A stretch of 64,000 nucleotides of DNA from a virus (Duplodnaviria; Heunggongvirae; Uroviricota; Caudoviricetes), in the IMG/VR virus record IMGVR_UViG_3300045988_005640. One strand, given 5' to 3'. The translations under genes and the position numbers were made by a program. Shown piece by piece: positions 6,424-64,000 of the stretch; within the stretch, counting starts at the first letter, position 1, and every line of letters begins with the position of its first letter. The notes beneath the pieces are model-generated. The model searched no databases, had not been told where the DNA came from, and saw only the letters and a program-made list of their open reading frames with translations.

Positions 6424-6765
6424 ATGAAGAAAGGTTCAGTAGGTGAAATTGCTACACAATTAGCTTTCCTCAAAAGAGGTTATGAAGTGTATTCACCAGC
6501 TACAGATAATGCAAAGTATGACTTTCTAGTTCACAAAGATGGTTTGATTGAGACTGTTGAGGTAAAATCAACATCAGTCAAAAGAGGTGAACTTTGGAGA
6601 GTGCAACTGAAAAGAGTTCATTCTAACAAGAATGAAAATAGAATAATGAATTTTGATAACTCTCAAGTTGATTACTTAGCTGTTTACATTGAACCACTTG
6701 ATAAAGTCATCATCTACAAAGCTAAAGATATCAAGTCTAAGACTGAACTTAGCTTAAAGATTTAA
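6424..6765 (+). CDS. PD-(D/E)xK nuclease, Holliday-junction-resolvase (Hjc)-like
   Basis: Track ORF 6244..6765 trimmed to the ATG at 6424 (RBS AAGG at 6412), because the upstream part overlaps tRNA-Trp-like and tRNA-Ser. Motifs GSVGE..LKRGYEVY, D-FLV, and ETVEVKST match the Hjc-type D...E-x-K core. Confidence 0.5.
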   Translation: MKKGSVGEIATQLAFLKRGYEVYSPATDNAKYDFLVHKDGLIETVEVKSTSVKRGELWRVQLKRVHSNKNENRIMNFDNSQVDYLAVYIEPLDKVIIYKAKDIKSKTELSLKI

Positions 6766-6906
6766 TACACCGTCCATGCTTGCTCGCATTTTCGGTTTAT
6801 CCCTCGTGTATTGTCGTACACACTGATAAAGCACCTAGTAGGTGTCACGGAGAAGAGATAATATCAAGCTCTCCAAAGGTTCTAGTCACCGGATTAAACA
6901 AGACTA

Positions 6907-6930
6907 TGCAAAGACCTTTTTAGGTCTTTT
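6907..6930 (+). terminator. hairpin AAAGACC-TTTTTA-GGTCTTT followed by T-run
   Basis: 7-bp stem plus T-rich tail, downstream of the nuclease ORF. Confidence 0.4.
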
Positions 6931-7010
6931 TAGAGGGCTTCTAAGGTTATTACGGCTTGTTGTGGAACCTTGTTGCTTAGGTTCTTAGAAGTTCTCTAAA
7001 AAGATTTAAT

Positions 7011-7088
7011 GGGAGATTGACGGTAATTGGTAAACCTATCTCGCTTAGAACGAGATGTTTGAGGGTTCGAATCCCTTGTCTCCTACCA
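7011..7088 (+). tRNA. tRNA-Leu (anticodon TAG), short variable loop (class-I-like)
   Basis: Acceptor GGGAGAT/GTCTCCT, anticodon stem TCTCG/CGAGA (perfect) with loop CTTAGAA, 5-nt variable loop, T-arm GAGGG-TTCGAAT-CCCTT, discriminator A, CCA encoded. Confidence 0.6.
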
Positions 7089-7095
7089 AATTAAT

Positions 7096-7171
7096 GCAGG
7101 TGTAGCAAAATGGTTATGCGGCTGACTCTTAATCAGTAAGACGATGGGTTCAATTCCCTCCACCTGTACCA
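7096..7171 (+). tRNA. tRNA-Lys (anticodon CTT)
   Basis: Acceptor GCAGGTG/CACCTGT, anticodon stem GCTGA/TCAGT with loop CTCTTAA, T-loop TTCAATT, CCA encoded; same 3-pair T-stem as the TTT isoacceptor. Confidence 0.6.
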
Positions 7172-7176
7172 AAAAT

Positions 7177-7252
7177 GGGGTCATAGTTTATATGGTTAAA
7201 ATTCGAGTTTTGCAAACTTGGGAACTGAGTTCAATTCTCAGTGACTCCACCA
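7177..7252 (+). tRNA. tRNA-Ala (anticodon TGC)
   Basis: Acceptor GGGGTCA/TGACTCC, D-stem GTTT/AAAT, anticodon stem CGAGT/ACTTG with loop TTTGCAA, T-arm CTGAG-TTCAATT-CTCAG, CCA encoded. Confidence 0.7.
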
Positions 7253-7258
7253 ATTAGT

Positions 7259-7333
7259 GCATCCATAGTTTAAACGGGAAAATTACAGTCTTCCAAACTG
7301 AGGTTGAGGGTTCGATTCCCTCTGGATGCTCCA
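7259..7333 (+). tRNA. tRNA-Gly (anticodon TCC)
   Basis: Acceptor GCATCCA/TGGATGC (perfect), anticodon loop CTTCCAA, T-arm GAGGG-TTCGATT-CCCTC, CCA encoded. Confidence 0.75.
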
Positions 7334-7340
7334 AATTAAT

Positions 7341-7416
7341 GCTCCTATCGTATAATTGGCTATTACGGTTGCCTTGTAAGCAACTTATCAGGGTTCGAAT
7401 CCTTGTGGGAGCACCA
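7341..7416 (+). tRNA. tRNA-Thr (anticodon TGT)
   Basis: Acceptor GCTCCTA/TGGGAGC, anticodon stem GTTGC/GCAAC (perfect) with loop CTTGTAA, T-loop TTCGAAT, CCA encoded. Confidence 0.7.
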
Positions 7417-7417
7417 A

Positions 7418-7511
7418 TTCAGAGGTCAAGTGAAAGACCGCTGGTGTCAACTGAAGACCGTAACAAATTCCACGGAGTTGAGTTAGCGGCACAACTTCAG
7501 ACCTCTTTCAC
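7418..7511 (+). other. stem-enclosed non-coding element containing an A-box-like motif (CTGAAGACCGTAAC)
   Basis: 7-bp stem AGAGGTC (7421-7427) with GACCTCT (7500-7506); internal pairs CTGAAG/CTTCAG; no T-loop, no ORF. Confidence 0.35.
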
Positions 7512-7586
7512 ACTCGCTTAGTTTATATGGTAAAACATCACCCTTACAAGATGAAGAAAAAGGTTCAAGTCCTTTAGTGAGTACCA
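7512..7586 (+). tRNA. tRNA-Val (anticodon TAC)
   Basis: Acceptor ACTCGCT/AGTGAGT, D-stem GTTT/AAAC, anticodon loop CTTACAA, T-arm AAAGG-TTCAAGT-CCTTT, CCA encoded. Confidence 0.65.
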
Positions 7587-7587
7587 T

Positions 7588-7665
7588 GTTCCAGTATCCC
7601 AATTGGCAGAGGATGCAAGCTCAAACCTTGTATTAGTGACGGTTCGAATCCGTCTTGGAACACCA
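7588..7665 (+). tRNA. tRNA-Leu (anticodon CAA), short variable loop (class-I-like)
   Basis: Acceptor GTTCCAG/TTGGAAC, anticodon stem GCAAG/CTTGT with loop CTCAAAC, 6-nt variable loop, T-arm GACGG-TTCGAAT-CCGTC, discriminator A, CCA encoded. Confidence 0.6.
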
Positions 7666-7681
7666 ATTTTAGGAGAACACT

Positions 7682-7789
7682 ATGAGCAATAAGTCAATTG
7701 CAAAAAAGTTTAGAGCGTCATACCTAAACAGACGTAAAAACAAAGTTTGTGAAAAACTGTATGGTGTTCTCGTAGGTAAGCAGGATTAG
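7682..7789 (+). CDS. hypothetical small basic protein (35 aa); may be spurious
   Basis: ATG at 7682 preceded by AGGAG (7671-7675); the last 10 nt overlap the 5' end of tRNA-Arg(ACG). Confidence 0.25.
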   Translation: MSNKSIAKKFRASYLNRRKNKVCEKLYGVLVGKQD

Positions 7790-7855
7790 TTCAAATGGAT
7801 AGAGCAACAGTCTACGAAGCTGTTAATAGGGGTTCGAATCCCTTATCCTGCACCA
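7780..7855 (+). tRNA. tRNA-Arg (anticodon ACG)
   Basis: Acceptor GCAGGAT/ATCCTGC (perfect), D-stem GTTC/GAGC, anticodon stem ACAGT/GCTGT with loop CTACGAA, T-loop TTCGAAT, CCA encoded. Confidence 0.75.
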
Positions 7856-7874
7856 ATTTAAAGAGGCTATTTAG

Positions 7875-8432
7875 ATGAGATATTTGAAGTATGCTTCATG
7901 GATTTTCTTAGCTTTGTTAGAGCCATTTGCAGCAATCTTAGCAGTTATCTTAGCACCTTTTGTAGTTCCATTCTACAGTGAGAAGAAAGGACACTTACCT
8001 TTCGGGTTCAGATGGATGGAGACATATGACAACCCAATTGATGGTGATGAAGGTCACGTTAAAAGATGGGCTAATATCAGATGGATTGGTAAACTAGGTG
8101 TCTACATGCAAAGAGTCGGATGGCTCTGGAGAAACAAAGCTTATAACTTCTCTTACCATGTATTAGGAAGAGATGTAAAAGATGTTACTAAGTGGAAAGG
8201 TAATATCAACGTAAGTTCTGACCCTGAAGATAATCAGACAGGTTATCTACTAATGTGGAACAGTAATGCTTGGGGATTATTCGCTTTTATCCCATCAATT
8301 AAAATCTTTGGTAAACAATTTTACTGGAGAATTTATATTGGATGGAAACTAAAAAGTGTTGTCCCAGAAGAAAGAGCATTCTCAAGGGAAAGAGTTATGT
8401 TGGCATTCTTTATTCATCCACTGAGAAAGTAA
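7875..8432 (+). CDS. hypothetical membrane protein
   Basis: 185-aa ORF with hydrophobic N-terminus (WIFLALLEPFAAILAVILAPFVVPF); sits inside the tRNA array. Confidence 0.55.
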   Translation: MRYLKYASWIFLALLEPFAAILAVILAPFVVPFYSEKKGHLPFGFRWMETYDNPIDGDEGHVKRWANIRWIGKLGVYMQRVGWLWRNKAYNFSYHVLGRDVKDVTKWKGNINVSSDPEDNQTGYLLMWNSNAWGLFAFIPSIKIFGKQFYWRIYIGWKLKSVVPEERAFSRERVMLAFFIHPLRK

Positions 8433-8440
8433 AGATTTAA

Positions 8441-8515
8441 AGGGGATTAGTTTACAAGGTTAAAACCTCGGTCTTTGAAATCGAAGAAGTTGGTTCAATT
8501 CCAACATCCCCGCCA
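8441..8515 (+). tRNA. tRNA-Gln (anticodon TTG)
   Basis: D-stem GTTT/AAAC, anticodon stem TCGGT/ATCGA with loop CTTTGAA, T-arm GTTGG-TTCAATT-CCAAC; acceptor AGGGGAT/ATCCCCG has an A1.G72 mismatch and the 3' end reads CCA without a clear discriminator. Confidence 0.55.
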
Positions 8516-8517
8516 AT

Positions 8518-8596
8518 GCTCCATTACTCCAATTGGCAGAGAGGCCAGACTTAAAATCTGTGTTATGTATCGGTTCGAATCCGATATGGAGTACCA
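8518..8596 (+). tRNA. tRNA-Leu (anticodon TAA), short variable loop (7 nt)
   Basis: Acceptor GCTCCAT/ATGGAGT, anticodon loop CTTAAAA, T-arm ATCGG-TTCGAAT-CCGAT, discriminator A, CCA encoded. Confidence 0.55.
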
Positions 8597-8601
8597 AATT
8601 T

Positions 8602-8677
8602 AGCGGCATAGCATAACTGGCAATGCAGCAGTCTCTGAAGCTGTCTTATTAAGGTTCAAATCCTTATGCCGCTGCCA
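8602..8677 (+). tRNA. tRNA-Gln (anticodon CTG)
   Basis: Acceptor AGCGGCA/TGCCGCT (perfect), D-stem GCAT/ATGC, anticodon stem GCAGT/GCTGT with loop CTCTGAA, T-arm TAAGG-TTCAAAT-CCTTA, CCA encoded. Confidence 0.7.
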
Positions 8678-8680
8678 CTT

Positions 8681-8706
8681 CTAAGGATTCTTACGAGAGT
8701 CCTTAA
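8681..8706 (+). other. conserved hairpin, copy 2 (stem TAAGGA/TCCTTA, loop TTCTTACGAGAG)
   Basis: Same loop motif as 5124-5136; begins 4 nt after the CCA of tRNA-Gln(CTG). Confidence 0.5.
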
Positions 8707-8708
8707 AT

Positions 8709-8784
8709 GTGGCCTTATCATAAACGGTAATGACCCATGCTGTGAACATGGTCTATACGGGTTCAAATCCCGTAGGTCACCCCA
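8709..8784 (+). tRNA. tRNA-His (anticodon GTG)
   Basis: Acceptor GTGGCCT/AGGTCAC, D-stem TCAT/ATGA, anticodon stem CCATG/CATGG (perfect) with loop CTGTGAA, T-arm ACGGG-TTCAAAT-CCCGT, CCA encoded. Confidence 0.75.
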
Positions 8785-8789
8785 ATTTA

Positions 8790-8866
8790 TAGTCCAAGTA
8801 GCTTATATGGTTAAAGCGCGTGTCTGAAAAACATGAGAAGAGGGTTCAAATCCCACTGGACTACCA
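8790..8866 (+). tRNA. tRNA-Phe (anticodon GAA), acceptor register uncertain
   Basis: D-stem GCTT/AAGC, anticodon stem CGTGT/ACATG with loop CTGAAAA, T-loop TTCAAAT; the acceptor pairs as TAGTCCA/TGGACTA but the 8-9 spacing is off by one. Confidence 0.5.
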
Positions 8867-9178
8867 ATTTCAAAGGTGCTTAATGAAAGAGATGACAGAA
8901 CAAGGTAAGGAGATTTTCAATCTCTTAAAAACCGGTAAAGGGTTTTCTAACCCCTTATTACTGGTGCAGCAGTTCTCGGTGGAACCGTAGCTGCCTCTAC
9001 ATCACTTGTAAGCTCTATTAGCTCTGTATCAGACCCTACAGTAAAGGATAAGCTTGTTGCTGCTGGACTTACAACAGTTCTGCTTAACAGCTTTACCACG
9101 AGTCTGACAAGCACTACATCAACTACCAAAACACTAACAGATTACGGTCAAAAATCCATTGATGAGTTTTCATCACGT

Positions 9179-9616
9179 ATGCAGGTAGCAAAAGGTTATT
9201 CTAATGTTATGGGTGCAGCAGGTGAACAAGTTGGCTGTACACCATTTAGTGGTATTATGGGTGTTGCTACAGAGTATGGTCAAAAAGCTATTGATACGAT
9301 TAACAGTGCACTAGATAGTGTTAATGGTGTGTTAAGTGACTTACAAGATGCTATTGACAAAGGTCTTGATACTATTTCTGATTTAGCTGAGCAAGCTGTT
9401 AGTAAGATTAATGAAGGTATTTCAAAAATTACAGCTTATGCAGATGAAGTTGTGCAGATGATTGAAGAAGAAGCTGCTCTTATTGCAGAGTACCTTAAAA
9501 CGAATATCAATGGGTTCTTAGCAGGTATCTTACCAGACTGGTTTGATGATGCTTGTAAAACTGGTGTAATTGACACTATTGCAACACCAGAAATGAAGAA
9601 CGCATTACAGAAATAA
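9179..9616 (+). CDS. hypothetical protein (possibly N-terminally extended)
   Basis: 145-aa ORF from the first ATG; the same frame is open from 8951 without a canonical start, and a 35-aa ORF with a good RBS (ATG 8883) lies upstream in another frame. Confidence 0.45.
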   Translation: MQVAKGYSNVMGAAGEQVGCTPFSGIMGVATEYGQKAIDTINSALDSVNGVLSDLQDAIDKGLDTISDLAEQAVSKINEGISKITAYADEVVQMIEEEAALIAEYLKTNINGFLAGILPDWFDDACKTGVIDTIATPEMKNALQK

Positions 9617-9618
9617 AT

Positions 9619-9711
9619 GGAAGATTAACCCTAAAAGGTAAGGGAGCAGTTTGCTAAACTGCCAGTAGCTGAGAAATCGGTGTACCAGTTCAAGTCTGGT
9701 ATCTTCCTCCA
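9619..9711 (+). tRNA. tRNA-Ser (anticodon GCT), class II
   Basis: Acceptor GGAAGAT/ATCTTCC (perfect), D-stem CCC/GGG, anticodon stem GCAGT/ACTGC with loop TTGCTAA, 21-nt variable arm, T-arm ACCAG-TTCAAGT-CTGGT, CCA encoded. Confidence 0.7.
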
Positions 9712-9715
9712 ATTT

Positions 9716-9791
9716 GAATCCGTGACAGAAATGGCTATGTGCCTGTCTGCAAAACAGGTTTATAAGGGTTCGAGTCCCTTCGGATTCTCCA
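9716..9791 (+). tRNA. tRNA-Cys (anticodon GCA)
   Basis: Acceptor GAATCCG/CGGATTC (perfect), anticodon stem CCTGT/ACAGG with loop CTGCAAA, T-arm AAGGG-TTCGAGT-CCCTT, CCA encoded. Confidence 0.75.
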
Positions 9792-57220: not shown

Positions 57221-59365
57221 ATGAACAAAGTACAGATTATTAAAAAGAATGGCTCACTTGAAGAACCTGATATCAAAAAAGTTTTAGCAGCAGTCACAAA
57301 GTCAGCTAACAGAGTTGGTTATAAAGAGCTTCCACCAGATGTTACTCAAGCTCTTGAGTCAGCATTTATGAGGATTCTGGTAAAGTCCACTAAGCAGAAT
57401 AATTTGCTAATTTCGGTAAATGATATTCACAGTATTGTTGAGGGTGCTTTGGCAGAAGTCAATCACGAGATTTATGAGTCTTACTCAACATATAGAAATT
57501 ACCGTAAAGAGGTTGCTCAAAATTGGGATGAACTCTACCAGAAGACTAAAGATACACTCTTCTTAGGTGACCGTGAAAATGCTAACTTTGACAGCAGTTT
57601 AATTTCTACGAAAGGTTCAATTATCCGTGGTTACCTGACTAAAGAAATCTTTAAACAGTATCATCTAACACCAGAGGAACTTGAAGCCATTGAGAAAGGC
57701 TTTATCTATATCCATGATTTAAGAGACCTGATTTTTGGTGGTATTAACTGTTGCCTGTTTGACATTGGTAAAGTCCTGAAAGGTGGCTTTGAAATGTCCG
57801 GCATTGAGTACTGTGAACCTAAATCTGTACTGTCAGCGTTGCAGGTTATTGGTGACGTAGTACTTTCAGCAACTGCACAGCAATTTGGTGGTTTTACTTT
57901 AGCAGAGATTGATAAGGTACTTGTACCGTATGCTAAGAAGTCTCTACGCTATCATGCTGAGAAAGCATCATCTTATGGTATTCCTAAAGAGCATTACCAC
58001 AATTATGTAATGGAGCAGTTACAAATTGAATTAACTCAAGGTTTTCAGTCACTTGAAATGAAACTGAACACTGTACCTTGTAGCCGTGGTGATTTCGCAT
58101 TCACAACTTTAACATTTGGTTTACTTGACTCAGACATGTCTAATGAAGACAACCGGCTACAATACATGATTGCAAACACCATTCTTGATGTTCGCATGAA
58201 TGGACAAGGTAAGAGTAAGAAGCCTGTTGTATTCCCTAAACTGGTTTATATTCATGACCAGAAGAGACACGATGAGAATATCTGTCAAGGCCAACTGTAC
58301 AGTAAAGCTATTGAGTGTTGCTCTAAAGCAATGTATCCAGATTTCTTAAGCGTATCTGGTCATGGTGCTGTAGCAGAGGCTTTTGAGCGTTCTGGCAAGG
58401 TAATTTCACCGATGGGTTGCAGAGCTTTCTTATCCCCATATCTTAACGAGAATGGAGAAGAGTTCTACGTTGGTCGTGCTAACATTGGTGCTGTGTCTTT
58501 GAACTTACCAATGATTTACCAGTATTCTAAAGAGAATGGTTTAGATTTCTGGAAAGAGCTTGACAAGTACCTAGAGATGATTCGCAGCTTCCACAAGAAA
58601 CGCTACGAAATGATTGCTAATATGCCAGCAAGCTCTAATCCTCTTGCATTCACACAAGGTGGTCTGTACAAAGGGACCAAGAAACCTACTGACAAGGTTG
58701 GTTGGGATATCGTGAAGTCTTTCACAGCTTCTTTTGGGGTTACTGCGCTTGATGAGTTATCTGTTCTTGCTGAAGGTAAACGGCTGCATGAAGTTGGGAG
58801 CTATAGTTTTGCATACGATGTTCTGGCATACATTAACATGAAAACTGAAGAGTTTAAAAATGAAGATGGCTTCTTATATGCTGTCTATGGTACTCCAGCA
58901 GAATCACTTTGTGGAACTCAGCTAAAACAGTTCAGAGAAATGTTTGGTGTTATCAAAGGTGTTTCTGACAAGGAATACTTTACAAACAGTTTCCATATGA
59001 ATGTTGCAGCAGACATCTCACCATTTGAGAAGCAGGACTTAGAAGAGCCATTCTTCCATATCTGTAGAGGTGGCAGAATCCAGTATGTCAGGGTAGCTAA
59101 CCCAGAAAACTTACCAGCACTTAAAAGCTGTATTACCAGAGGGATGTTGAAAGGTTTCTATCAGGGACTTAACTTTGACTTAGCAATCTGTGAACATTGT
59201 GGTAACAGACCAAAATCAGATGTTGAAGAGTGTGAAGTTTGTCACTCACATGATATCTCTGTGATTAACAGGGTGTGTGGTTATCTTGGATGGACTAAGA
59301 TTAAAGGTGAATCACGAATGAATGATGCAAAAATCGCTGAGATTCGTGACAGAGTTTCTATGTAA
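57221..59365 (+). CDS. nrdD: anaerobic ribonucleoside-triphosphate reductase (class III)
   Basis: 714 aa; C-terminal zinc site (CEHCGN..CEVCH) and glycyl-radical motif (RVCGYLG). Confidence 0.9.
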   Translation: MNKVQIIKKNGSLEEPDIKKVLAAVTKSANRVGYKELPPDVTQALESAFMRILVKSTKQNNLLISVNDIHSIVEGALAEVNHEIYESYSTYRNYRKEVAQNWDELYQKTKDTLFLGDRENANFDSSLISTKGSIIRGYLTKEIFKQYHLTPEELEAIEKGFIYIHDLRDLIFGGINCCLFDIGKVLKGGFEMSGIEYCEPKSVLSALQVIGDVVLSATAQQFGGFTLAEIDKVLVPYAKKSLRYHAEKASSYGIPKEHYHNYVMEQLQIELTQGFQSLEMKLNTVPCSRGDFAFTTLTFGLLDSDMSNEDNRLQYMIANTILDVRMNGQGKSKKPVVFPKLVYIHDQKRHDENICQGQLYSKAIECCSKAMYPDFLSVSGHGAVAEAFERSGKVISPMGCRAFLSPYLNENGEEFYVGRANIGAVSLNLPMIYQYSKENGLDFWKELDKYLEMIRSFHKKRYEMIANMPASSNPLAFTQGGLYKGTKKPTDKVGWDIVKSFTASFGVTALDELSVLAEGKRLHEVGSYSFAYDVLAYINMKTEEFKNEDGFLYAVYGTPAESLCGTQLKQFREMFGVIKGVSDKEYFTNSFHMNVAADISPFEKQDLEEPFFHICRGGRIQYVRVANPENLPALKSCITRGMLKGFYQGLNFDLAICEHCGNRPKSDVEECEVCHSHDISVINRVCGYLGWTKIKGESRMNDAKIAEIRDRVSM

Positions 59366-60112: not shown

Positions 60113-60408
60113 GTAAAACAATTCGAAGAAAAGGTTTAAAGAACGTTCATGGACTCTATGAGTGGAGAAATGAGGTACGTAACAGAGAAAATGCTTCAGA
60201 TGTCTACTTCCATTCTGATATGATGTCCAGAAAAGGTGGCTCTTACGACTTCACAAGCCAGCCTTGTAGAGAGATTAAGAAGGCCACTAAACGTCTTACA
60301 AGAACACAAATAAGGCAGCTTTCTAAGACATCCTTCTTAGATGAAGATTTTGATATTGATAGCAAGTCTCCAAAGAAAGCCGCTAAGAACACTTATATGT
60401 ATTGGTGA
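60109..60408 (+). CDS. hypothetical protein
   Basis: 99-aa ORF, ATGA coupling. Confidence 0.45.
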   Translation: MSKTIRRKGLKNVHGLYEWRNEVRNRENASDVYFHSDMMSRKGGSYDFTSQPCREIKKATKRLTRTQIRQLSKTSFLDEDFDIDSKSPKKAAKNTYMYW

Positions 60409-60417
60409 GGTAACTAG

Positions 60418-60903
60418 ATGAATTACATGGAGATTCGACCATTTGACACAGCTAATGGTGAAGGGGTTCGTGTAAGCCTCTTCGTAGCTGGTTGTAAGCA
60501 TCACTGTGAAGGTTGCTTTAATAAGGAATCTTGGAAGTTTAATGCTGGTAAAGAGTTCACTTATGCAAACCTTTATGGCATCATTAAGTTAATGGATGAT
60601 AATGCCATCAGTGGGCTGTCAATACTTGGTGGAGAACCTCTGGATGATAGAAACATTCAAGAGGTTACCAACATATGCAAACGTATTAAAACCGTTTACC
60701 CAGAAAAATCTATCTGGCTCTGGACAGGTTTTCAGTTACATGAAAAAATTCACCTTGATGTGATGAAATATGTTGACGTGGTGATTGATGGTAAGTATGA
60801 TTCATCTAAACCAACAGTTAAACCGTATCGTGGTTCAGATAACCAAAACCTCTGGAGAAAAGAGTACGGATGGCAAGGTGATTGTCAGTGGAGAGCAGAG
60901 TGA
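60418..60903 (+). CDS. nrdG: anaerobic ribonucleotide reductase activating protein (radical SAM)
   Basis: 161 aa; N-terminal CKHHCEGC cluster typical of NrdG activases. Confidence 0.8.
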   Translation: MNYMEIRPFDTANGEGVRVSLFVAGCKHHCEGCFNKESWKFNAGKEFTYANLYGIIKLMDDNAISGLSILGGEPLDDRNIQEVTNICKRIKTVYPEKSIWLWTGFQLHEKIHLDVMKYVDVVIDGKYDSSKPTVKPYRGSDNQNLWRKEYGWQGDCQWRAE

Positions 60904-60999
60904 TTATTCTGGCAAATGGACTAAGGTATAACTCCAATTGGTATCACTGAAGAAGAACTTCATAAGTTCTGTATTAAACTTTAATGAGAGAGACTAAAA

Positions 61000-61266
61000 A
61001 TGGGAATTTTAGGTAATATGAAAGCTGGATTCTTGAAGGCACTGGAAAAAGCAGCAGCAATTGTTTCTATGACTGGAAAGCAGGTCGGTGTAGATGCTTC
61101 AGCGGTTGCACAGGTTCTTGCAAGCCAAATTGAACAGCAGCCTTACATCTACGTAGGACGTGGTAAAGGTGGTAAGAAACAAGCCCACCGCCAATCTGGT
61201 GCAGCAGCTATTAAACGAGCAGCTAAGAAAGCTCGTAACCGTAAACGTAACAAGAAGGTTAAATAA
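61000..61266 (+). CDS. hypothetical protein with highly basic C-terminus
   Basis: 88 aa ending AAKKARNRKRNKKVK. Confidence 0.45.
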   Translation: MGILGNMKAGFLKALEKAAAIVSMTGKQVGVDASAVAQVLASQIEQQPYIYVGRGKGGKKQAHRQSGAAAIKRAAKKARNRKRNKKVK

Positions 61267-61268
61267 CC

Positions 61269-61589
61269 ATGAGCAAAGTTTATAACACTCGTAAATTACA
61301 GATTTTCGTACTGTGCCAGTTTATGGCTAAAGAATACAACTTCTACTATTGTGGTACAGGTTTTATTAGCGATGATGATGGCTCATACCTCCCATTCAAA
61401 GAAGCTGTAAAACTCTTTAATGAAGAGAAAAGCTCTAAGAAAGATATTGAAAAGGTTAAGCTAACCTACAGCAAGAAAGATAAGAAGATTATCTGCCTAG
61501 ATAACTTTGTGAAAGTTACTGGAGAAGCAAAAGAGTTTATGGATGAGAGTGATATTTCATTCACAAGCATCTTGAAAGTAGCTCAGTAA
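61269..61589 (+). CDS. hypothetical protein
   Basis: 106-aa ORF. Confidence 0.45.
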   Translation: MSKVYNTRKLQIFVLCQFMAKEYNFYYCGTGFISDDDGSYLPFKEAVKLFNEEKSSKKDIEKVKLTYSKKDKKIICLDNFVKVTGEAKEFMDESDISFTSILKVAQ

Positions 61590-61602
61590 ACAGATACTAT
61601 AA

Positions 61603-61626
61603 GGGGACTGTAAAGGTTCCCTTTTT
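61603..61626 (+). terminator. rho-independent terminator
   Basis: Stem GGGGAC/GTTCCC, then TTTTT. Confidence 0.5.
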
Positions 61627-61640
61627 ATTTTGGAGGTAAA

Positions 61641-62156
61641 ATGTATCTGTCAAACCTGAAACGTTCGGTTGCAATGTCAGTTCTAAGACTCAGCTTTGAT
61701 GAGCGTCAAGAGTTTATAGACTCCCACAAATATGACCCTTCAAATTCTAATCACATGGTTCTTTGGAATCGTGATAACTTCCGTGAAAGAGCACTTGTCC
61801 GTTATTACCCACACTACACAATAGATAACCTGTATGAATGGTGTGTTGTGAAGAACACCATTGCAACACTGAACAATCTTTGCAGGTATACGGGTAAGCA
61901 AACATTTACATTAGGTCATCACAAACCTGTTACAAAAGGTGGTGAACATCACTGTGCAAACTGGTTTATCCAAACTAAAACTGATAACCAGAAGCAAGGA
62001 GATAGCCTCCTAAGTATCCCTAAGATGACCTATGAAGAGCAAGAGAAATATATCAAAAATAATATGCCAGATGTGCTTGACAACAACTATACAGATTTGG
62101 CAATATCTCTCCTGTTGAAGTTCGAGACAGTTTATAGGGCAACTTATAATGGCTAA
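61641..62156 (+). CDS. HNH endonuclease
   Basis: 171 aa; H-N-H motif LGHHKPVTKGGEHHCANWFIQTKTDNQKQGD. Confidence 0.75.
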   Translation: MYLSNLKRSVAMSVLRLSFDERQEFIDSHKYDPSNSNHMVLWNRDNFRERALVRYYPHYTIDNLYEWCVVKNTIATLNNLCRYTGKQTFTLGHHKPVTKGGEHHCANWFIQTKTDNQKQGDSLLSIPKMTYEEQEKYIKNNMPDVLDNNYTDLAISLLLKFETVYRATYNG

Positions 62157-62427
62157 AGAAAAGTGGGAGATTTTACCATTAGTCAGTGAAGGAGGTAATG
62201 GTTGTGAAATGTACATGATACGTGGTCATGTTCCAGAGCCAATTGCACTTGAGATGGTAAACAACTTTACAGATGGTTCTTACAAAGACTTAGGCGAACC
62301 AACTGTCAAGCAACAATGGGTTAAACCTGTACCAGACAGCACAGGTAACTGTAGTGTACTTTATCACGTTGTAGACCCTGCAAAATGCAAATCTGCAATG
62401 GCAGTAACAAACGTAACTTTTGATTGA
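62149..62427 (+). CDS. hypothetical protein
   Basis: 92-aa ORF. Confidence 0.45.
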   Translation: MAKEKWEILPLVSEGGNGCEMYMIRGHVPEPIALEMVNNFTDGSYKDLGEPTVKQQWVKPVPDSTGNCSVLYHVVDPAKCKSAMAVTNVTFD

Positions 62428-63320
62428 GAGAGAAAACTATGAAAACATCTATCCGTGTTACAGTTCATTCACCAACTAAAGGAACTCATGAAGAAGAGTT
62501 TAACATCATCCAATTTCCTTCTGGTGAGATTGGTGGACACTTTTCTCCAGAGTTTGTTGATTTCACTGCTTATGCAGCATCATCCATCAACAATGTGATT
62601 ATGATTGTAAAAGGTTATGATAAGGATACATTGTTTGCTGTGGCACTTGCTAAAGAAGCAATTGATGATTTAATTCCTCATGATTATGCTTTAAAGACTG
62701 TCATCTTTTACTACTTACCAAATGCACGTTATGACCGTCACATGTTTAAAGGCGACGCAGCAGCTTTAAAGGTTTTTGCTAAACAGGTAAATGCAATGGG
62801 ATTTGGTGCAGTCTGTGCAGTTGACCCTCACAGTTACGTTCCAGATAACCTGTTTAACTGCTTCCAGAGTATTCCTCAAAAGGAGATTGCAGTTCACTAC
62901 GCAAATGACCCACTGATTGATTACTTAGTAGCCCCAGATGCAGGTGCTGCTAAGAAGATTGCAGAGACTGCTAAAGAGGTGGATAAACCATACATCACAA
63001 TGTCTAAGGTGCGTAACCTTAAGACTGGTGAAATTACTGGTATGCGAATCCTTGACGATGTTGATTTGACAGATAAAACTGTCATGATTCTGGATGATAT
63101 TTGTGATGGAGGTCGAACCTTCATAGAAGCAGCCAAACATCTTCGTGAAGCAGGTGCAAAACGTGTGGAACTCTATGTAACTCATGGTATTTTCTCTAAA
63201 GATGTTGAAAACTTGCTTGACAATGGTATTGACCATATCTACACTACAAACTCTTTAGGGGAAGCTAAAGACCGTGGCTTAACACATTATAGCCAAGTTA
63301 CTGTAGCAAACCTTGATTAA
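62424..63320 (+). CDS. prs: ribose-phosphate pyrophosphokinase (PRPP synthetase)
   Basis: 298 aa; DPHS motif and PRPP-binding loop ILDDICDGGRT. Confidence 0.85.
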   Translation: MREKTMKTSIRVTVHSPTKGTHEEEFNIIQFPSGEIGGHFSPEFVDFTAYAASSINNVIMIVKGYDKDTLFAVALAKEAIDDLIPHDYALKTVIFYYLPNARYDRHMFKGDAAALKVFAKQVNAMGFGAVCAVDPHSYVPDNLFNCFQSIPQKEIAVHYANDPLIDYLVAPDAGAAKKIAETAKEVDKPYITMSKVRNLKTGEITGMRILDDVDLTDKTVMILDDICDGGRTFIEAAKHLREAGAKRVELYVTHGIFSKDVENLLDNGIDHIYTTNSLGEAKDRGLTHYSQVTVANLD

Positions 63321-63329
63321 AACTTTATA

Positions 63330-63350
63330 GGGGCTTCCAAGCCCCATTTT
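63330..63350 (+). terminator. rho-independent terminator (moderate)
   Basis: Stem GGGGC/GCCCC, loop TTCCAA, then ATTTT. Confidence 0.5.
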
Positions 63351-63365
63351 GAGAGAGATTAAAAG

Positions 63366-64000
63366 ATGACTAAATCACTTTATGCAGTACCAGCAGGTTT
63401 AAATGCAGATGCTTACAAATCTGGTCATGTTTACCAGTATCCTAGCGCAACAGAGTACTTGATGTTCAATCTGACACCACGTAGCGACAAATGGTTTAAC
63501 AGCCCCTTAGCAATTGACGGTGTAGTGGCTTTTGGTATTCAACGTTTTGTTAAAGATTACTTGATAGACCACTGGAATGCCACTTTCTTTGAACGTGATA
63601 AAAAAGAAGCCATTGATGAAATCTTAGAAGTCATGAATGGTGTTCTGGGTAAAGATGCTATCGGTCGAGAGCATTGGGAAGCACTTCACGACTTAGGTTA
63701 TCTACCAGTTGAAGTATACGCTGTAGAAGAAGGCACAGTTGTTCCAATGCGTGTCCCGATGATTGTCTTTCAGAACACTGTTTCAGGTTTTCATTGGGTA
63801 GCAGGTTATCTGGAAGATGCTTTCTCTGCTGAAATTTGGAAGGCTTGTACCATTGCAACTATTGCATTGCATTACAAACGCATCTGTAAGAAGTGGGCTG
63901 ACCTTACTTGTGACAATGACTTACATTTACCTTATCAGTGCCATGATTTTGCTATGCGTGGTATGTCCGGCTTTACTGATGACGCATTTAACGCTGTAGG
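63366..64000 (+). CDS. nadV: nicotinamide phosphoribosyltransferase (NAMPT/NadV), 3' end beyond window (partial)
   Basis: Hand translation from ATG 63366 is open to the window end; MTKSLYAVPAGLNADAYKSGH.., LPVEVYAVEEGTVVP and HDFAMRGMS match conserved NAMPT segments. Confidence 0.8.
   Translation, partial: MTKSLYAVPAGLNADAYKSGHVYQYPSATEYLMFNLTPRSDKWFNSPLAIDGVVAFGIQRFVKDYLIDHWNATFFERDKKEAIDEILEVMNGVLGKDAIGREHWEALHDLGYLPVEVYAVEEGTVVPMRVPMIVFQNTVSGFHWVAGYLEDAFSAEIWKACTIATIALHYKRICKKWADLTCDNDLHLPYQCHDFAMRGMSGFTDDAFNAV

What the first reader, a model, noticed from the sequence alone, without database searches (positions are those of the whole stretch)
62424..64000. NAD salvage module: PRPP synthetase adjacent to nicotinamide phosphoribosyltransferase
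Adjacent prs and NAMPT genes would let the phage make NMN from nicotinamide and PRPP. Published work describes phage NAD-reconstitution pathways that counter NAD-depleting defence systems; the NMN adenylyltransferase partner that would complete such a pathway may lie just beyond the window.
Basis: partly seen in the sequence, partly recalled or inferred. Interest (0 to 1): 0.5.

Follow-up and report, generated by a model that had tools for sequence, protein, structure and literature searches.

The report
Known phage NAD-rebuilding operon (NARP1)
The two genes are real, but they are the already published two-enzyme phage pathway NARP1 (Adps plus Namat), which rebuilds NAD+ directly from ADP-ribose and nicotinamide, so no third NMN adenylyltransferase gene is needed and none is present.

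Summary
A 293-aa Prs-family gene (62439-63320, +) is followed after 45 nt by a Nampt-family gene (63366 to the window end, first 211 of 593 codons).

The window is a Felixounavirus, 99.8-99.9% identical to phages LF82P5 and KhF2. The pair is orthologous to genes 79-80 of Felixounavirus Bas63. Those genes are the founding example of NAD+ reconstitution pathway 1 (NARP1; Osterman et al., doi 10.1101/2024.02.11.579819). The Namat fragment is 100% identical to Bas63's and the Adps is 78% identical. The identical Adps protein from KhF2 is already listed in that paper's Table S1.

In NARP1, Adps pyrophosphorylates ADP-ribose using ATP. Namat then swaps the pyrophosphate for nicotinamide, which gives NAD+ directly.

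I found no NMNAT-like sequence in the window or in the rest of a near-identical genome. The genes downstream are two small hypothetical proteins, then rIIA and rIIB.

Verdict: real, correctly linked to anti-defence, wrong chemistry, already known.

One side observation: the N-terminal 175 residues of this Adps are a distinct allele, 67-71% identical to those of other Ounavirinae, and that allele has not been tested experimentally.

The parts
62439..63320 (+). adps: ADP-ribose pyrophosphate synthetase (Prs-family, 293 aa), first enzyme of NARP1
   Evidence: ORF listed; ATG start as annotated in KhF2 and Bas63. 100% identical to the KhF2 protein, which Osterman Table S1 lists with 'Namat within 10 genes: Yes'. 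78% identical to Bas63_0079. Scores 99.8 bits against the biochemically characterised SPbetaL1 Adps, versus 61 bits against E. coli Prs. K190 aligns with the essential K162 of SPbetaL1 Adps. All Prs equivalog models score far below their cutoffs.
63321..63365 (+). 45-nt adps-namat spacer, with a small GC hairpin (63330-63335 pairs with 63340-63345) followed by AUUUUG, and a GAGAGAG ribosome-binding-like motif
   Evidence: Sequence. Fold of the 54-nt stretch 63315-63368: -12.6 kcal/mol, z -2.1. The stem is conserved in Bas63 and KhF2 while the loop differs. The terminator scan did not call it. In FelixO1, phiSUSP1 and Moogle an HNH homing endonuclease gene lies between adps and namat.
63366..64000 (+). 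namat: nicotinamide ADP-ribose transferase (Nampt-family), 5' part only (211 of 593 codons), second enzyme of NARP1
   Evidence: Translation. 100% identical over 211 aa to Bas63_0080. The best solved structure is SPbetaL1 Namat 9W5W/9W5X at 176 bits, versus 62 bits or less for Xcc and mammalian Nampts (PDB codes confirmed). Residues D15, Y17, F195 and R198 align with the nicotinamide-pocket residues D13, Y15, F189 and R192. K42-W43 lies at the position of the selectivity-clamp loop residue R40. The full-length gene in KhF2 and Bas63 carries the Namat signature GSYTYQYMTRD.

Best explanation
This is a two-gene NARP1 (NAD+ reconstitution pathway 1) operon of a virulent Felixounavirus. NAD-depleting host defences such as SIR2-HerA, DSR2, type I Thoeris or Kongming cleave NAD+ into ADP-ribose and nicotinamide. 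Adps (62439-63320) then transfers pyrophosphate from ATP onto the terminal ribose of ADP-ribose, giving ADPR-PP. Namat (63366 onward) replaces that pyrophosphate with nicotinamide and regenerates NAD+ in one step. No NMN intermediate, no PRPP and no NMN adenylyltransferase are involved.

Shown here: orthology, gene order, conservation of the diagnostic residues, and absence of an NMNAT.

Shown by others on orthologues: the anti-defence phenotype and ADPR-PP production in Bas63 infection, and the enzyme activities of the SPbetaL1 proteins.

Inferred: that this particular Adps allele has the same activity.
For: - The window is 99.8-99.9% identical to Felixounavirus LF82P5 and KhF2.
- Namat residues 1-211 are 100% identical to Bas63_0080. 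Adps is 78% identical to Bas63_0079, with identical length and position.
- Deleting Bas63 genes 79-80 sensitised the phage about 20-fold to SIR2-HerA and deepened NAD+ loss. The phenotype did not depend on host pncC or nadR, and ADPR-PP was detected only with both the operon and the defence system present.
- SPbetaL1 Adps made ADPR-PP from ADPR plus ATP. SPbetaL1 Namat made NAD+ from ADPR-PP plus nicotinamide and preferred ADPR-PP over PRPP.
- The identical Adps protein and the 98%-identical Namat of KhF2 are catalogued as NARP1 in Tables S1 and S2.
- Namat-specific features are present: the K42-W43 clamp loop inside the window, and GSYTYQYMTRD in the near-identical full-length genes.
- The window Adps scores higher against SPbetaL1 Adps (99.8 bits) than against E. 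coli Prs (61 bits), and the catalytic Lys is conserved.
- No NMNAT was found in the window or in the rest of the KhF2 genome.
Against: - No enzyme from any Felixounavirus has been assayed in vitro. The Bas63 Adps did not purify well, so the biochemistry comes from SPbetaL1 proteins that are only about 36% identical.
- The window's Adps N-terminal domain (residues 1-175) is only 68% identical to the genetically tested Bas63 allele.
- Namat keeps some Nampt activity on PRPP in vitro, so a minor NMN side-route is not excluded.
- Two thirds of namat, including the catalytic Arg, the catalytic His and the SCH motif, lie beyond the window. They are inferred from relatives.
Confidence: 0.9

Rival explanations
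1. A true PRPP synthetase and a true Nampt make NMN from ribose-5-phosphate, ATP and nicotinamide. An NMN adenylyltransferase, from the phage or the host, finishes NAD+. This would be a NARP2-like or classical salvage route.
For: Family-level annotations: TIGR01251, Pfam Pribosyl_synth and NAMPT_N. GenBank records name the genes prs and nadV. Namat can make NMN from PRPP in vitro when ADPR-PP is absent.
Against: - This hypothesis was tested and rejected for the orthologous Bas63 operon, where protection persisted in a host lacking pncC and nadR.
- The SPbetaL1 orthologue showed no Prs activity.
- No NMNAT-like sequence was found in the window or the rest of the genome. The best E-value was 0.19, while the positive control was recovered.
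- The downstream genes are small hypothetical proteins, rIIA and rIIB.
- In phages, true Nampts form a separate clade that pairs with Nmnat and lacks Adps.
- Prs equivalog models score 40-104 bits against cutoffs of 296-536 bits.
Confidence: 0.04
2. The pathway is NARP1, but the distinct N-terminal domain of this Adps allele changes its substrate range, its regulation, or its susceptibility to a host factor, compared with the tested Bas63/FelixO1-type allele.
For: Residues 1-175 are 67-71% identical to the Bas63, FelixO1, phiSUSP1 and Moogle alleles. Those alleles are 77-95% identical to each other. Residues 176-293 are 87-99% identical. The divergence has sharp boundaries, about 62446 to 62960. 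The database is bimodal: 155 records at 90% identity or more and 91 records at 60-80%.
Against: dS is saturated (about 2.0) and dN is 0.23. That pattern indicates old divergence under purifying selection brought in by recombination, not recent adaptive change. The residues invariant across Adps and Prs (F26, G29, E30, R97, D99, R100, H131, and others) are all kept. A homing endonuclease site next to the gene gives a neutral explanation for the mosaicism.
Confidence: 0.05
3. The pair mainly boosts nucleotide precursor supply (PRPP) for phage DNA synthesis, as part of the neighbouring ribonucleotide reductase cluster, and is not an anti-defence module.
For: The genes sit directly after nrdA, nrdB, nrdD and nrdG.
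Against: NARP1 made no excess NAD+ when no defence system was present. ADPR-PP appeared only when SIR2-HerA was present. A Nampt-family partner has no role in nucleotide synthesis.
Confidence: 0.01

Closest known systems
NARP1 of Escherichia phage JohannRWettstein (Bas63), genes bas63_0079 and bas63_0080 (Osterman et al., doi 10.1101/2024.02.11.579819)
   Same: Same genus. Same gene order: nrdG, small ORFs, 171-aa ORF, 92-aa ORF, adps, namat, small ORFs, rIIA, rIIB. Same protein lengths (293 and 593 aa). The Namat N-terminus is 100% identical, Adps is 78% identical, and the intergenic hairpin is the same.
   Different: The Adps N-terminal 175 residues are a different allele (68% identity, nucleotide identity falling to 52-77%). 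The window's nrdD is uninterrupted, whereas in Bas63 the nrdD coding sequence is annotated in two joined pieces around a homing endonuclease gene.
NARP1 of Bacillus phage SPbetaL1: Adps WIT26982.1 and Namat PDB 9W5W/9W5X (Lan et al., PMC12774641)
   Same: Same two-enzyme architecture. The catalytic Lys of Adps is conserved (K162 aligns with K190). The Namat nicotinamide pocket is conserved. The Namat SCH motif follows the GSxPhixPhixPhiTRD pattern in the full-length relatives.
   Different: Only about 36% (Adps) identity. The clamp loop uses K42-W43 instead of R40, which is the Bas63-type solution described. The Felixounavirus Namat is about 100 aa longer, with an insertion of about 77 aa at residues 351-427.
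NARP2 of Vibrio phage KVP40 (Nampt plus bifunctional Nmnat/Nudix)
   Same: It also restores NAD+ against NAD-depleting defences and uses a Nampt-family enzyme.
   Different: NARP2 starts from PRPP, needs an Nmnat and lacks Adps. Here Adps is present and no Nmnat is detectable.
Extended NARP1 variants: NARP1-AP (Macro-domain ADPR-1''-phosphatase Adpp) and the RyDEP-containing NARP1 of mycobacteriophage DyoEdafos
   Same: The core Adps plus Namat pair.
   Different: No Macro-domain or RyR-domain (PF02026) protein is found among the two genes on either side. This is the plain two-gene form, which according to the aRES preprint should not overcome aRES.
Cellular ribose-phosphate diphosphokinase (Prs, e.g. 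E. coli b1207)
   Same: The fold family and the ATP and ribose-phosphate binding motifs are shared: FxxGE, RxDR, the DPH/DLH motif, and the DDxxDxGxT loop.
   Different: 29% identity over the C-terminal 190 residues only. It fails every Prs equivalog cutoff. No Pribosyltran_N Pfam match. The flexible-loop sequence differs: SKVRNLKTGEI versus DKRRPRANV.

Membership tests
NARP1 Adps (ADPR-PP synthetase) | Prs-family fold with the catalytic lysine of the flexible loop (SPbetaL1 K162, equivalent to B. subtilis Prs K197) | tested here: met
   K190 in SKVRN aligns with K162 in HKQRN. K162A abolishes activity.
NARP1 Adps (ADPR-PP synthetase) | Closer to experimentally supported Adps proteins than to cellular Prs | tested here: met
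   480 bits and 78% identity to Bas63 Adps; 99.8 bits to SPbetaL1 Adps; 61 bits to E. coli Prs. Prs equivalog HMMs score far below their cutoffs. I did not build a formal tree. The identical KhF2 protein is in the published Adps/Prs table.
NARP1 Adps (ADPR-PP synthetase) | A Namat homologue within 10 genes (97% of the Adps clade) | tested here: met
   namat starts 45 nt downstream on the same strand. Table S1 records 'Yes' for the identical KhF2 gene.
NARP1 Adps (ADPR-PP synthetase) | Pyrophosphorylates ADP-ribose, not ribose-5-phosphate, using ATP | not testable with these tools
   This needs a biochemical assay. It has been shown only for the SPbetaL1 enzyme, and indirectly (ADPR-PP in vivo) for Bas63.
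NARP1 Namat (nicotinamide ADPR-transferase) | Nampt-like nicotinamide pocket (SPbetaL1 D13, Y15, F189, R192) | tested here: met
   D15, Y17, F195 and R198 align in the window fragment (with residue roles).
NARP1 Namat (nicotinamide ADPR-transferase) | Selectivity-clamp loop (SCL) with Arg, Lys or Tyr at its third position and a stacking residue | tested here: met
   In the window sequence TPRSDKWFNSPL, K42 aligns with R40 of SPbetaL1 and is followed by W43. This is identical to Bas63, which Lan et al. cite as the Lys-type case.
NARP1 Namat (nicotinamide ADPR-transferase) | Selectivity-clamp helix motif GSxPhixPhixPhiTRD with aromatic residues at the x positions | tested here: inconclusive
   The motif lies beyond the window end (residue 488). 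It is present as GSYTYQYMTRD in KhF2, Bas63 and FelixO1. KhF2 is 99.8% identical to the window over the 3.6 kb before the window end.
NARP1 Namat (nicotinamide ADPR-transferase) | Closer to a proven Namat than to true Nampts | tested here: met
   The window fragment scores 176 bits against 9W5W (SPbetaL1 Namat) versus 62 bits or less against Xcc and mammalian Nampts. The full-length relative scores 430 bits versus 180 or less.
NARP2 (Nampt plus Nmnat) | An Nmnat (NMN adenylyltransferase, usually fused to Nudix) encoded in the same phage genome | tested here: not met
   tblastn with KVP40-like Nmnat, E. coli NadD and E. coli NadR against the window plus KhF2 1-34600 (together one genome equivalent) gave a best E-value of 0.19. 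The positive control was found. Sensitivity is limited to what tblastn can detect.
NARP2 (Nampt plus Nmnat) | The Nampt-family gene is not associated with an Adps gene | tested here: not met
   adps lies immediately upstream.
Canonical Prs (ribose-phosphate diphosphokinase) | Reaches the curated equivalog thresholds and has a recognisable N-terminal Prs domain | tested here: not met
   Only the broad subfamily model TIGR01251 passes (123.5 bits, cutoff 113). The equivalog models score 40-104 bits against cutoffs of 296-536. Pfam Pribosyltran_N was not reported.
NARP1-AP and RyDEP-extended NARP1 | A Macro-domain phosphatase (Adpp) or RyR-domain glycosidase (PF02026) within about two genes of the operon | tested here: not met
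   No Pfam match at E <= 1 to Macro or RyR domains in the two upstream ORFs of the window or the two downstream ORFs of KhF2 and Bas63.

The most novel reading that the evidence does not exclude
The window-type Adps carries an N-terminal domain (residues 1-175) more divergent from the tested Bas63/FelixO1 type than the alleles of other Ounavirinae genera are. About 155 database phages share this type. It might be a functionally distinct variant, for example with a different substrate range among ADPR derivatives, different regulation, or escape from an unknown host factor that targets Adps. The alternative is a neutral recombinant allele.
Probability: 0.06. Interest if true: 0.5.

Novelty: already known. 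Interest (0 to 1): 0.12.

Why it matters
This matters mainly as a correction. Public annotations, including GenBank records and the PDB molecule names for 9W5W and 9W5X, still call these genes prs and nadV/Nampt. That labelling leads readers to the PRPP/NMN model, which has been refuted by experiment, and to a search for an NMNAT that does not exist.

Recognised as NARP1, the operon predicts two things. This phage should resist defences that split NAD+ into ADP-ribose and nicotinamide, such as SIR2-HerA, DSR2, type I Thoeris and Kongming. As a plain two-gene form without Adpp, it should remain sensitive to aRES-type cleavage that yields ADPR-1''-phosphate.

No new biology is revealed.

Tried and rejected
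- NMNAT beyond the window. I retrieved the near-identical KhF2 genome and Bas63. Downstream are small hypothetical proteins, rIIA and rIIB. tblastn with three NMNAT classes over the whole genome equivalent was negative.
- Accessory NARP1 genes (Macro-domain Adpp, RyR-domain RyDEP) in the neighbouring ORFs. No Pfam hits.
- The 92-aa ORF just upstream as a possible third component. Its homologues occur only in Ounavirinae-type phages that share the whole syntenic block, so co-occurrence says nothing.
- The intergenic hairpin as a terminator. It is only moderately stable (z -2.1), has a 4-U tail, and the scan did not call it. I leave it as a possible attenuator or a leftover of the homing endonuclease insertion site.
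- Positive selection on the Adps N-terminus. dN/dS is about 0.1 with saturated dS, which indicates an old allele moved by recombination.
- A published Adps structure that would give sharper diagnostic residues. None was found in the library.
- The large protein and metagenome searches and structure prediction were not used, because the answer did not depend on them.
- Three accession guesses (MZ501111, MZ501078, MZ501084) were needed before I found Bas63 at MZ501086.

Full report
**What is there.** The mechanical ORF list shows a 298-codon ORF at 62424..63320 (+) with a TTG start. An open frame follows that starts at ATG 63366 and runs off the window end. The start annotated in close relatives for the first gene is the ATG at 62439, which gives 293 aa. 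Both ATGs have a GAGAGAG motif upstream, 6 nt before the first and 8 nt before the second.

The first protein matches the ribose-phosphate diphosphokinase subfamily TIGR01251 (123.5 bits, cutoff 113) and Pfam Pribosyltran and Pribosyl_synth. It also matches phrog_619 (E 4.6e-97). The 211-aa fragment of the second protein matches NAMPT_N, PRK09198 (E 2.7e-50) and phrog_16547 (E 2.3e-108).

**Where it comes from.** The region 60400-64000 is 99.9% identical to Felixounavirus LF82P5 and 99.8% identical to Enterobacteria phage KhF2. More than 230 FelixO1-like phages share it. In KhF2 the second gene is complete at 593 aa. It is followed by 111-aa and 58-aa hypothetical proteins, then rIIA and rIIB.

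**What it is.** Osterman et al. (doi 10.1101/2024.02.11.579819) described this operon in the BASEL Felixounavirus Bas63 (JohannRWettstein, MZ501086), genes 79-80. I fetched Bas63. The window's second protein is 100% identical to Bas63_0080 over all 211 residues. The first protein is 78% identical to Bas63_0079, with the same length. The full KhF2 orthologue is 98% identical to Bas63_0080.

It rejected that hypothesis on these results:
- Deleting genes 79-80 reduced plating about 20-fold on SIR2-HerA cells and deepened NAD+ loss.
- Wild-type Bas63 still overcame the defence in a host lacking pncC and nadR.
- Infected defence-carrying cells contained a new metabolite, ADPR-pyrophosphate.
- The SPbetaL1 orthologue of gene 79 gave no product in the assay for Prs activity, but pyrophosphorylated ADPR with ATP.
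- The SPbetaL1 orthologue of gene 80 joined ADPR-PP and nicotinamide into NAD+, and preferred ADPR-PP over PRPP.

The enzymes were named Adps and Namat, and the pathway NARP1. The KhF2 Adps protein is 100% identical to the window's. It appears in the paper's Table S1 with "Namat within 10 genes: Yes". The KhF2 Namat is listed in Table S2 as "Adps-associated".

**Membership tests done here.**

*Adps.*
- An alignment with Bas63 Adps, SPbetaL1 Adps, a Pseudomonas phage Adps and E. coli Prs places K190 opposite the essential K162 of SPbetaL1 Adps.
- The same alignment shows loop sequences shared by the four phage Adps sequences and not by E. coli Prs: SKVRNLKTGEI versus DKRRPRANV, and PDAGAAK versus PDIGGVV.
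- BLASTP gives 99.8 bits to SPbetaL1 Adps and 61 bits to E. coli Prs.
- All Prs equivalog HMMs score far below their cutoffs.

*Namat.*
- The window fragment alone scores 176 bits against 9W5W/9W5X. These are the SPbetaL1 Namat structures of Lan et al., PMC12774641. It scores 62 bits or less against Xcc and mammalian Nampts.
- D15, Y17, F195 and R198 align with the nicotinamide-pocket residues.
- K42-W43 occupies the selectivity-clamp loop. Lan et al. cite Bas63 as an example of this Lys-type arrangement.
- The clamp-helix signature GSxPhixPhixPhiTRD lies beyond the window. It reads GSYTYQYMTRD in KhF2, Bas63 and FelixO1.

**The predicted NMNAT.** I recovered a KVP40-type Nmnat (341 aa, L011:3128-4153) through a primer sequence given in the paper. 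I took NadD and NadR from E. coli K-12. tblastn of all three against the window plus KhF2 1-34600 gave nothing better than E = 0.19. The positive control was recovered. The window and that KhF2 stretch together make one genome equivalent. None of the four neighbouring small proteins has a NUDIX, cytidylyltransferase-like, Macro or RyR Pfam match. So this is the plain two-gene NARP1. It is not NARP2, and it is not the extended forms NARP1-AP or RyDEP.

**Caveats.**
- No Felixounavirus enzyme has been assayed in vitro, because the Bas63 Adps did not purify well.
- The window's Adps differs from the genetically tested allele mainly in its N-terminal domain.
- Namat keeps some Nampt activity in vitro.
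- Two thirds of namat lie outside the window.

**Side observations.**
- The divergence between the window and Bas63 is sharply localised. Nucleotide identity is 92-100% up to 62430. It drops to 52-77% for most of 62430-62910 and returns to about 90-98% afterwards.
- At protein level, residues 1-175 are 67-71% identical to Bas63, FelixO1, phiSUSP1 (Suspvirus) and Moogle (Mooglevirus). Those four are 77-95% identical to each other. Residues 176-293 are 87-99% identical.
- dS is saturated (about 2.0) and dN is 0.23, so this is an old allele introduced by recombination.
- In the phage collection the window type is the commoner form, with 155 records at 90% identity or more against 91 records at 60-80%.
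- FelixO1, phiSUSP1 and Moogle carry a 163-aa HNH homing endonuclease gene between adps and namat. The window has a 45-nt spacer with a small conserved hairpin instead. Homing-associated recombination is a plausible neutral cause of the mosaic pattern.

**Verdict.** This is a real feature that was correctly flagged as NAD-related anti-defence. Novelty: already known. Interest: low.

Noticed in passing
window 62446-62960 (Adps codons 3-175): A sharply bounded divergent cassette. Nucleotide identity to Bas63 is 52-77% for most of this stretch and 92-100% in the flanks. At protein level it is 67-71% identical to every other Ounavirinae allele examined, which is more divergent than those genera are from each other. 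dS is about 2.0 and dN is 0.23, so it looks like an old recombinant allele. This allele has not been tested experimentally.
   Followed up: partly
window 63321-63365; L015:4681-5172, L013:3391-3882, L014:4680-5171: FelixO1, phiSUSP1 and Moogle have a 163-aa HNH homing endonuclease gene (T7 gp3.8-like) between adps and namat. The window, KhF2 and Bas63 are endonuclease-free here. Their 45-nt spacer carries the hairpin GGGGCT-TCCA-AGCCCC, whose stem is conserved and whose loop varies.
   Followed up: partly
window 62149-62427 (+): A 92-aa ORF (phrog_4726, no Pfam match) ends 11 nt before the adps ATG and sits immediately upstream of adps in every relative whose annotation was fetched. Its homologues are confined to FelixO1-like phages, so a functional link to NARP1 cannot be judged from co-occurrence.
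   Followed up: partly
window 61641-62156 (+): A 171-aa ORF (phrog_3500) with a weak HNH endonuclease match (phrog_2214, E 2.2e-6). Some relatives annotate it as a putative HNH homing endonuclease. A terminator-like hairpin at 61601-61623 lies just upstream, so this ORF, the 92-aa ORF, adps and namat may form one transcription unit.
   Followed up: no
L001:12017-12247 (KhF2 Namat residues about 351-427, beyond the window): The Felixounavirus Namat (593 aa) has an insertion of about 77 aa relative to SPbetaL1 Namat (the matched PDB chains are 491-496 residues) and to Nampts. The insertion splits the match into two stretches. Its function is unknown.
   Followed up: no
window 4419-9791 (+): A cluster of 26 tRNA genes, typical of FelixO1-like phages. 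It includes tRNA-Arg(tct), tRNA-Ser(gct) and tRNA-Cys, which are not among the tRNAs annotated in the fetched part of the KhF2 record.
   Followed up: no
window 57221-59365 and 60418-60903 (+): nrdD and nrdG (anaerobic ribonucleotide reductase and its activase) lie just upstream. The window's nrdD is one uninterrupted 714-aa ORF. In Bas63 the nrdD coding sequence is annotated in two joined pieces around a homing endonuclease gene.
   Followed up: no
public records (KT184314, MZ501086, PDB 9W5W/9W5X): Annotation lags behind the literature. Most GenBank records listed still name the genes ribose-phosphate pyrophosphokinase and nicotinamide/nicotinate phosphoribosyltransferase. The PDB molecule name for the SPbetaL1 Namat structures is also 'Nicotinamide phosphoribosyltransferase'. 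KhF2 also carries an 11-nt 'attP' feature upstream of adps that looks doubtful.
   Followed up: no
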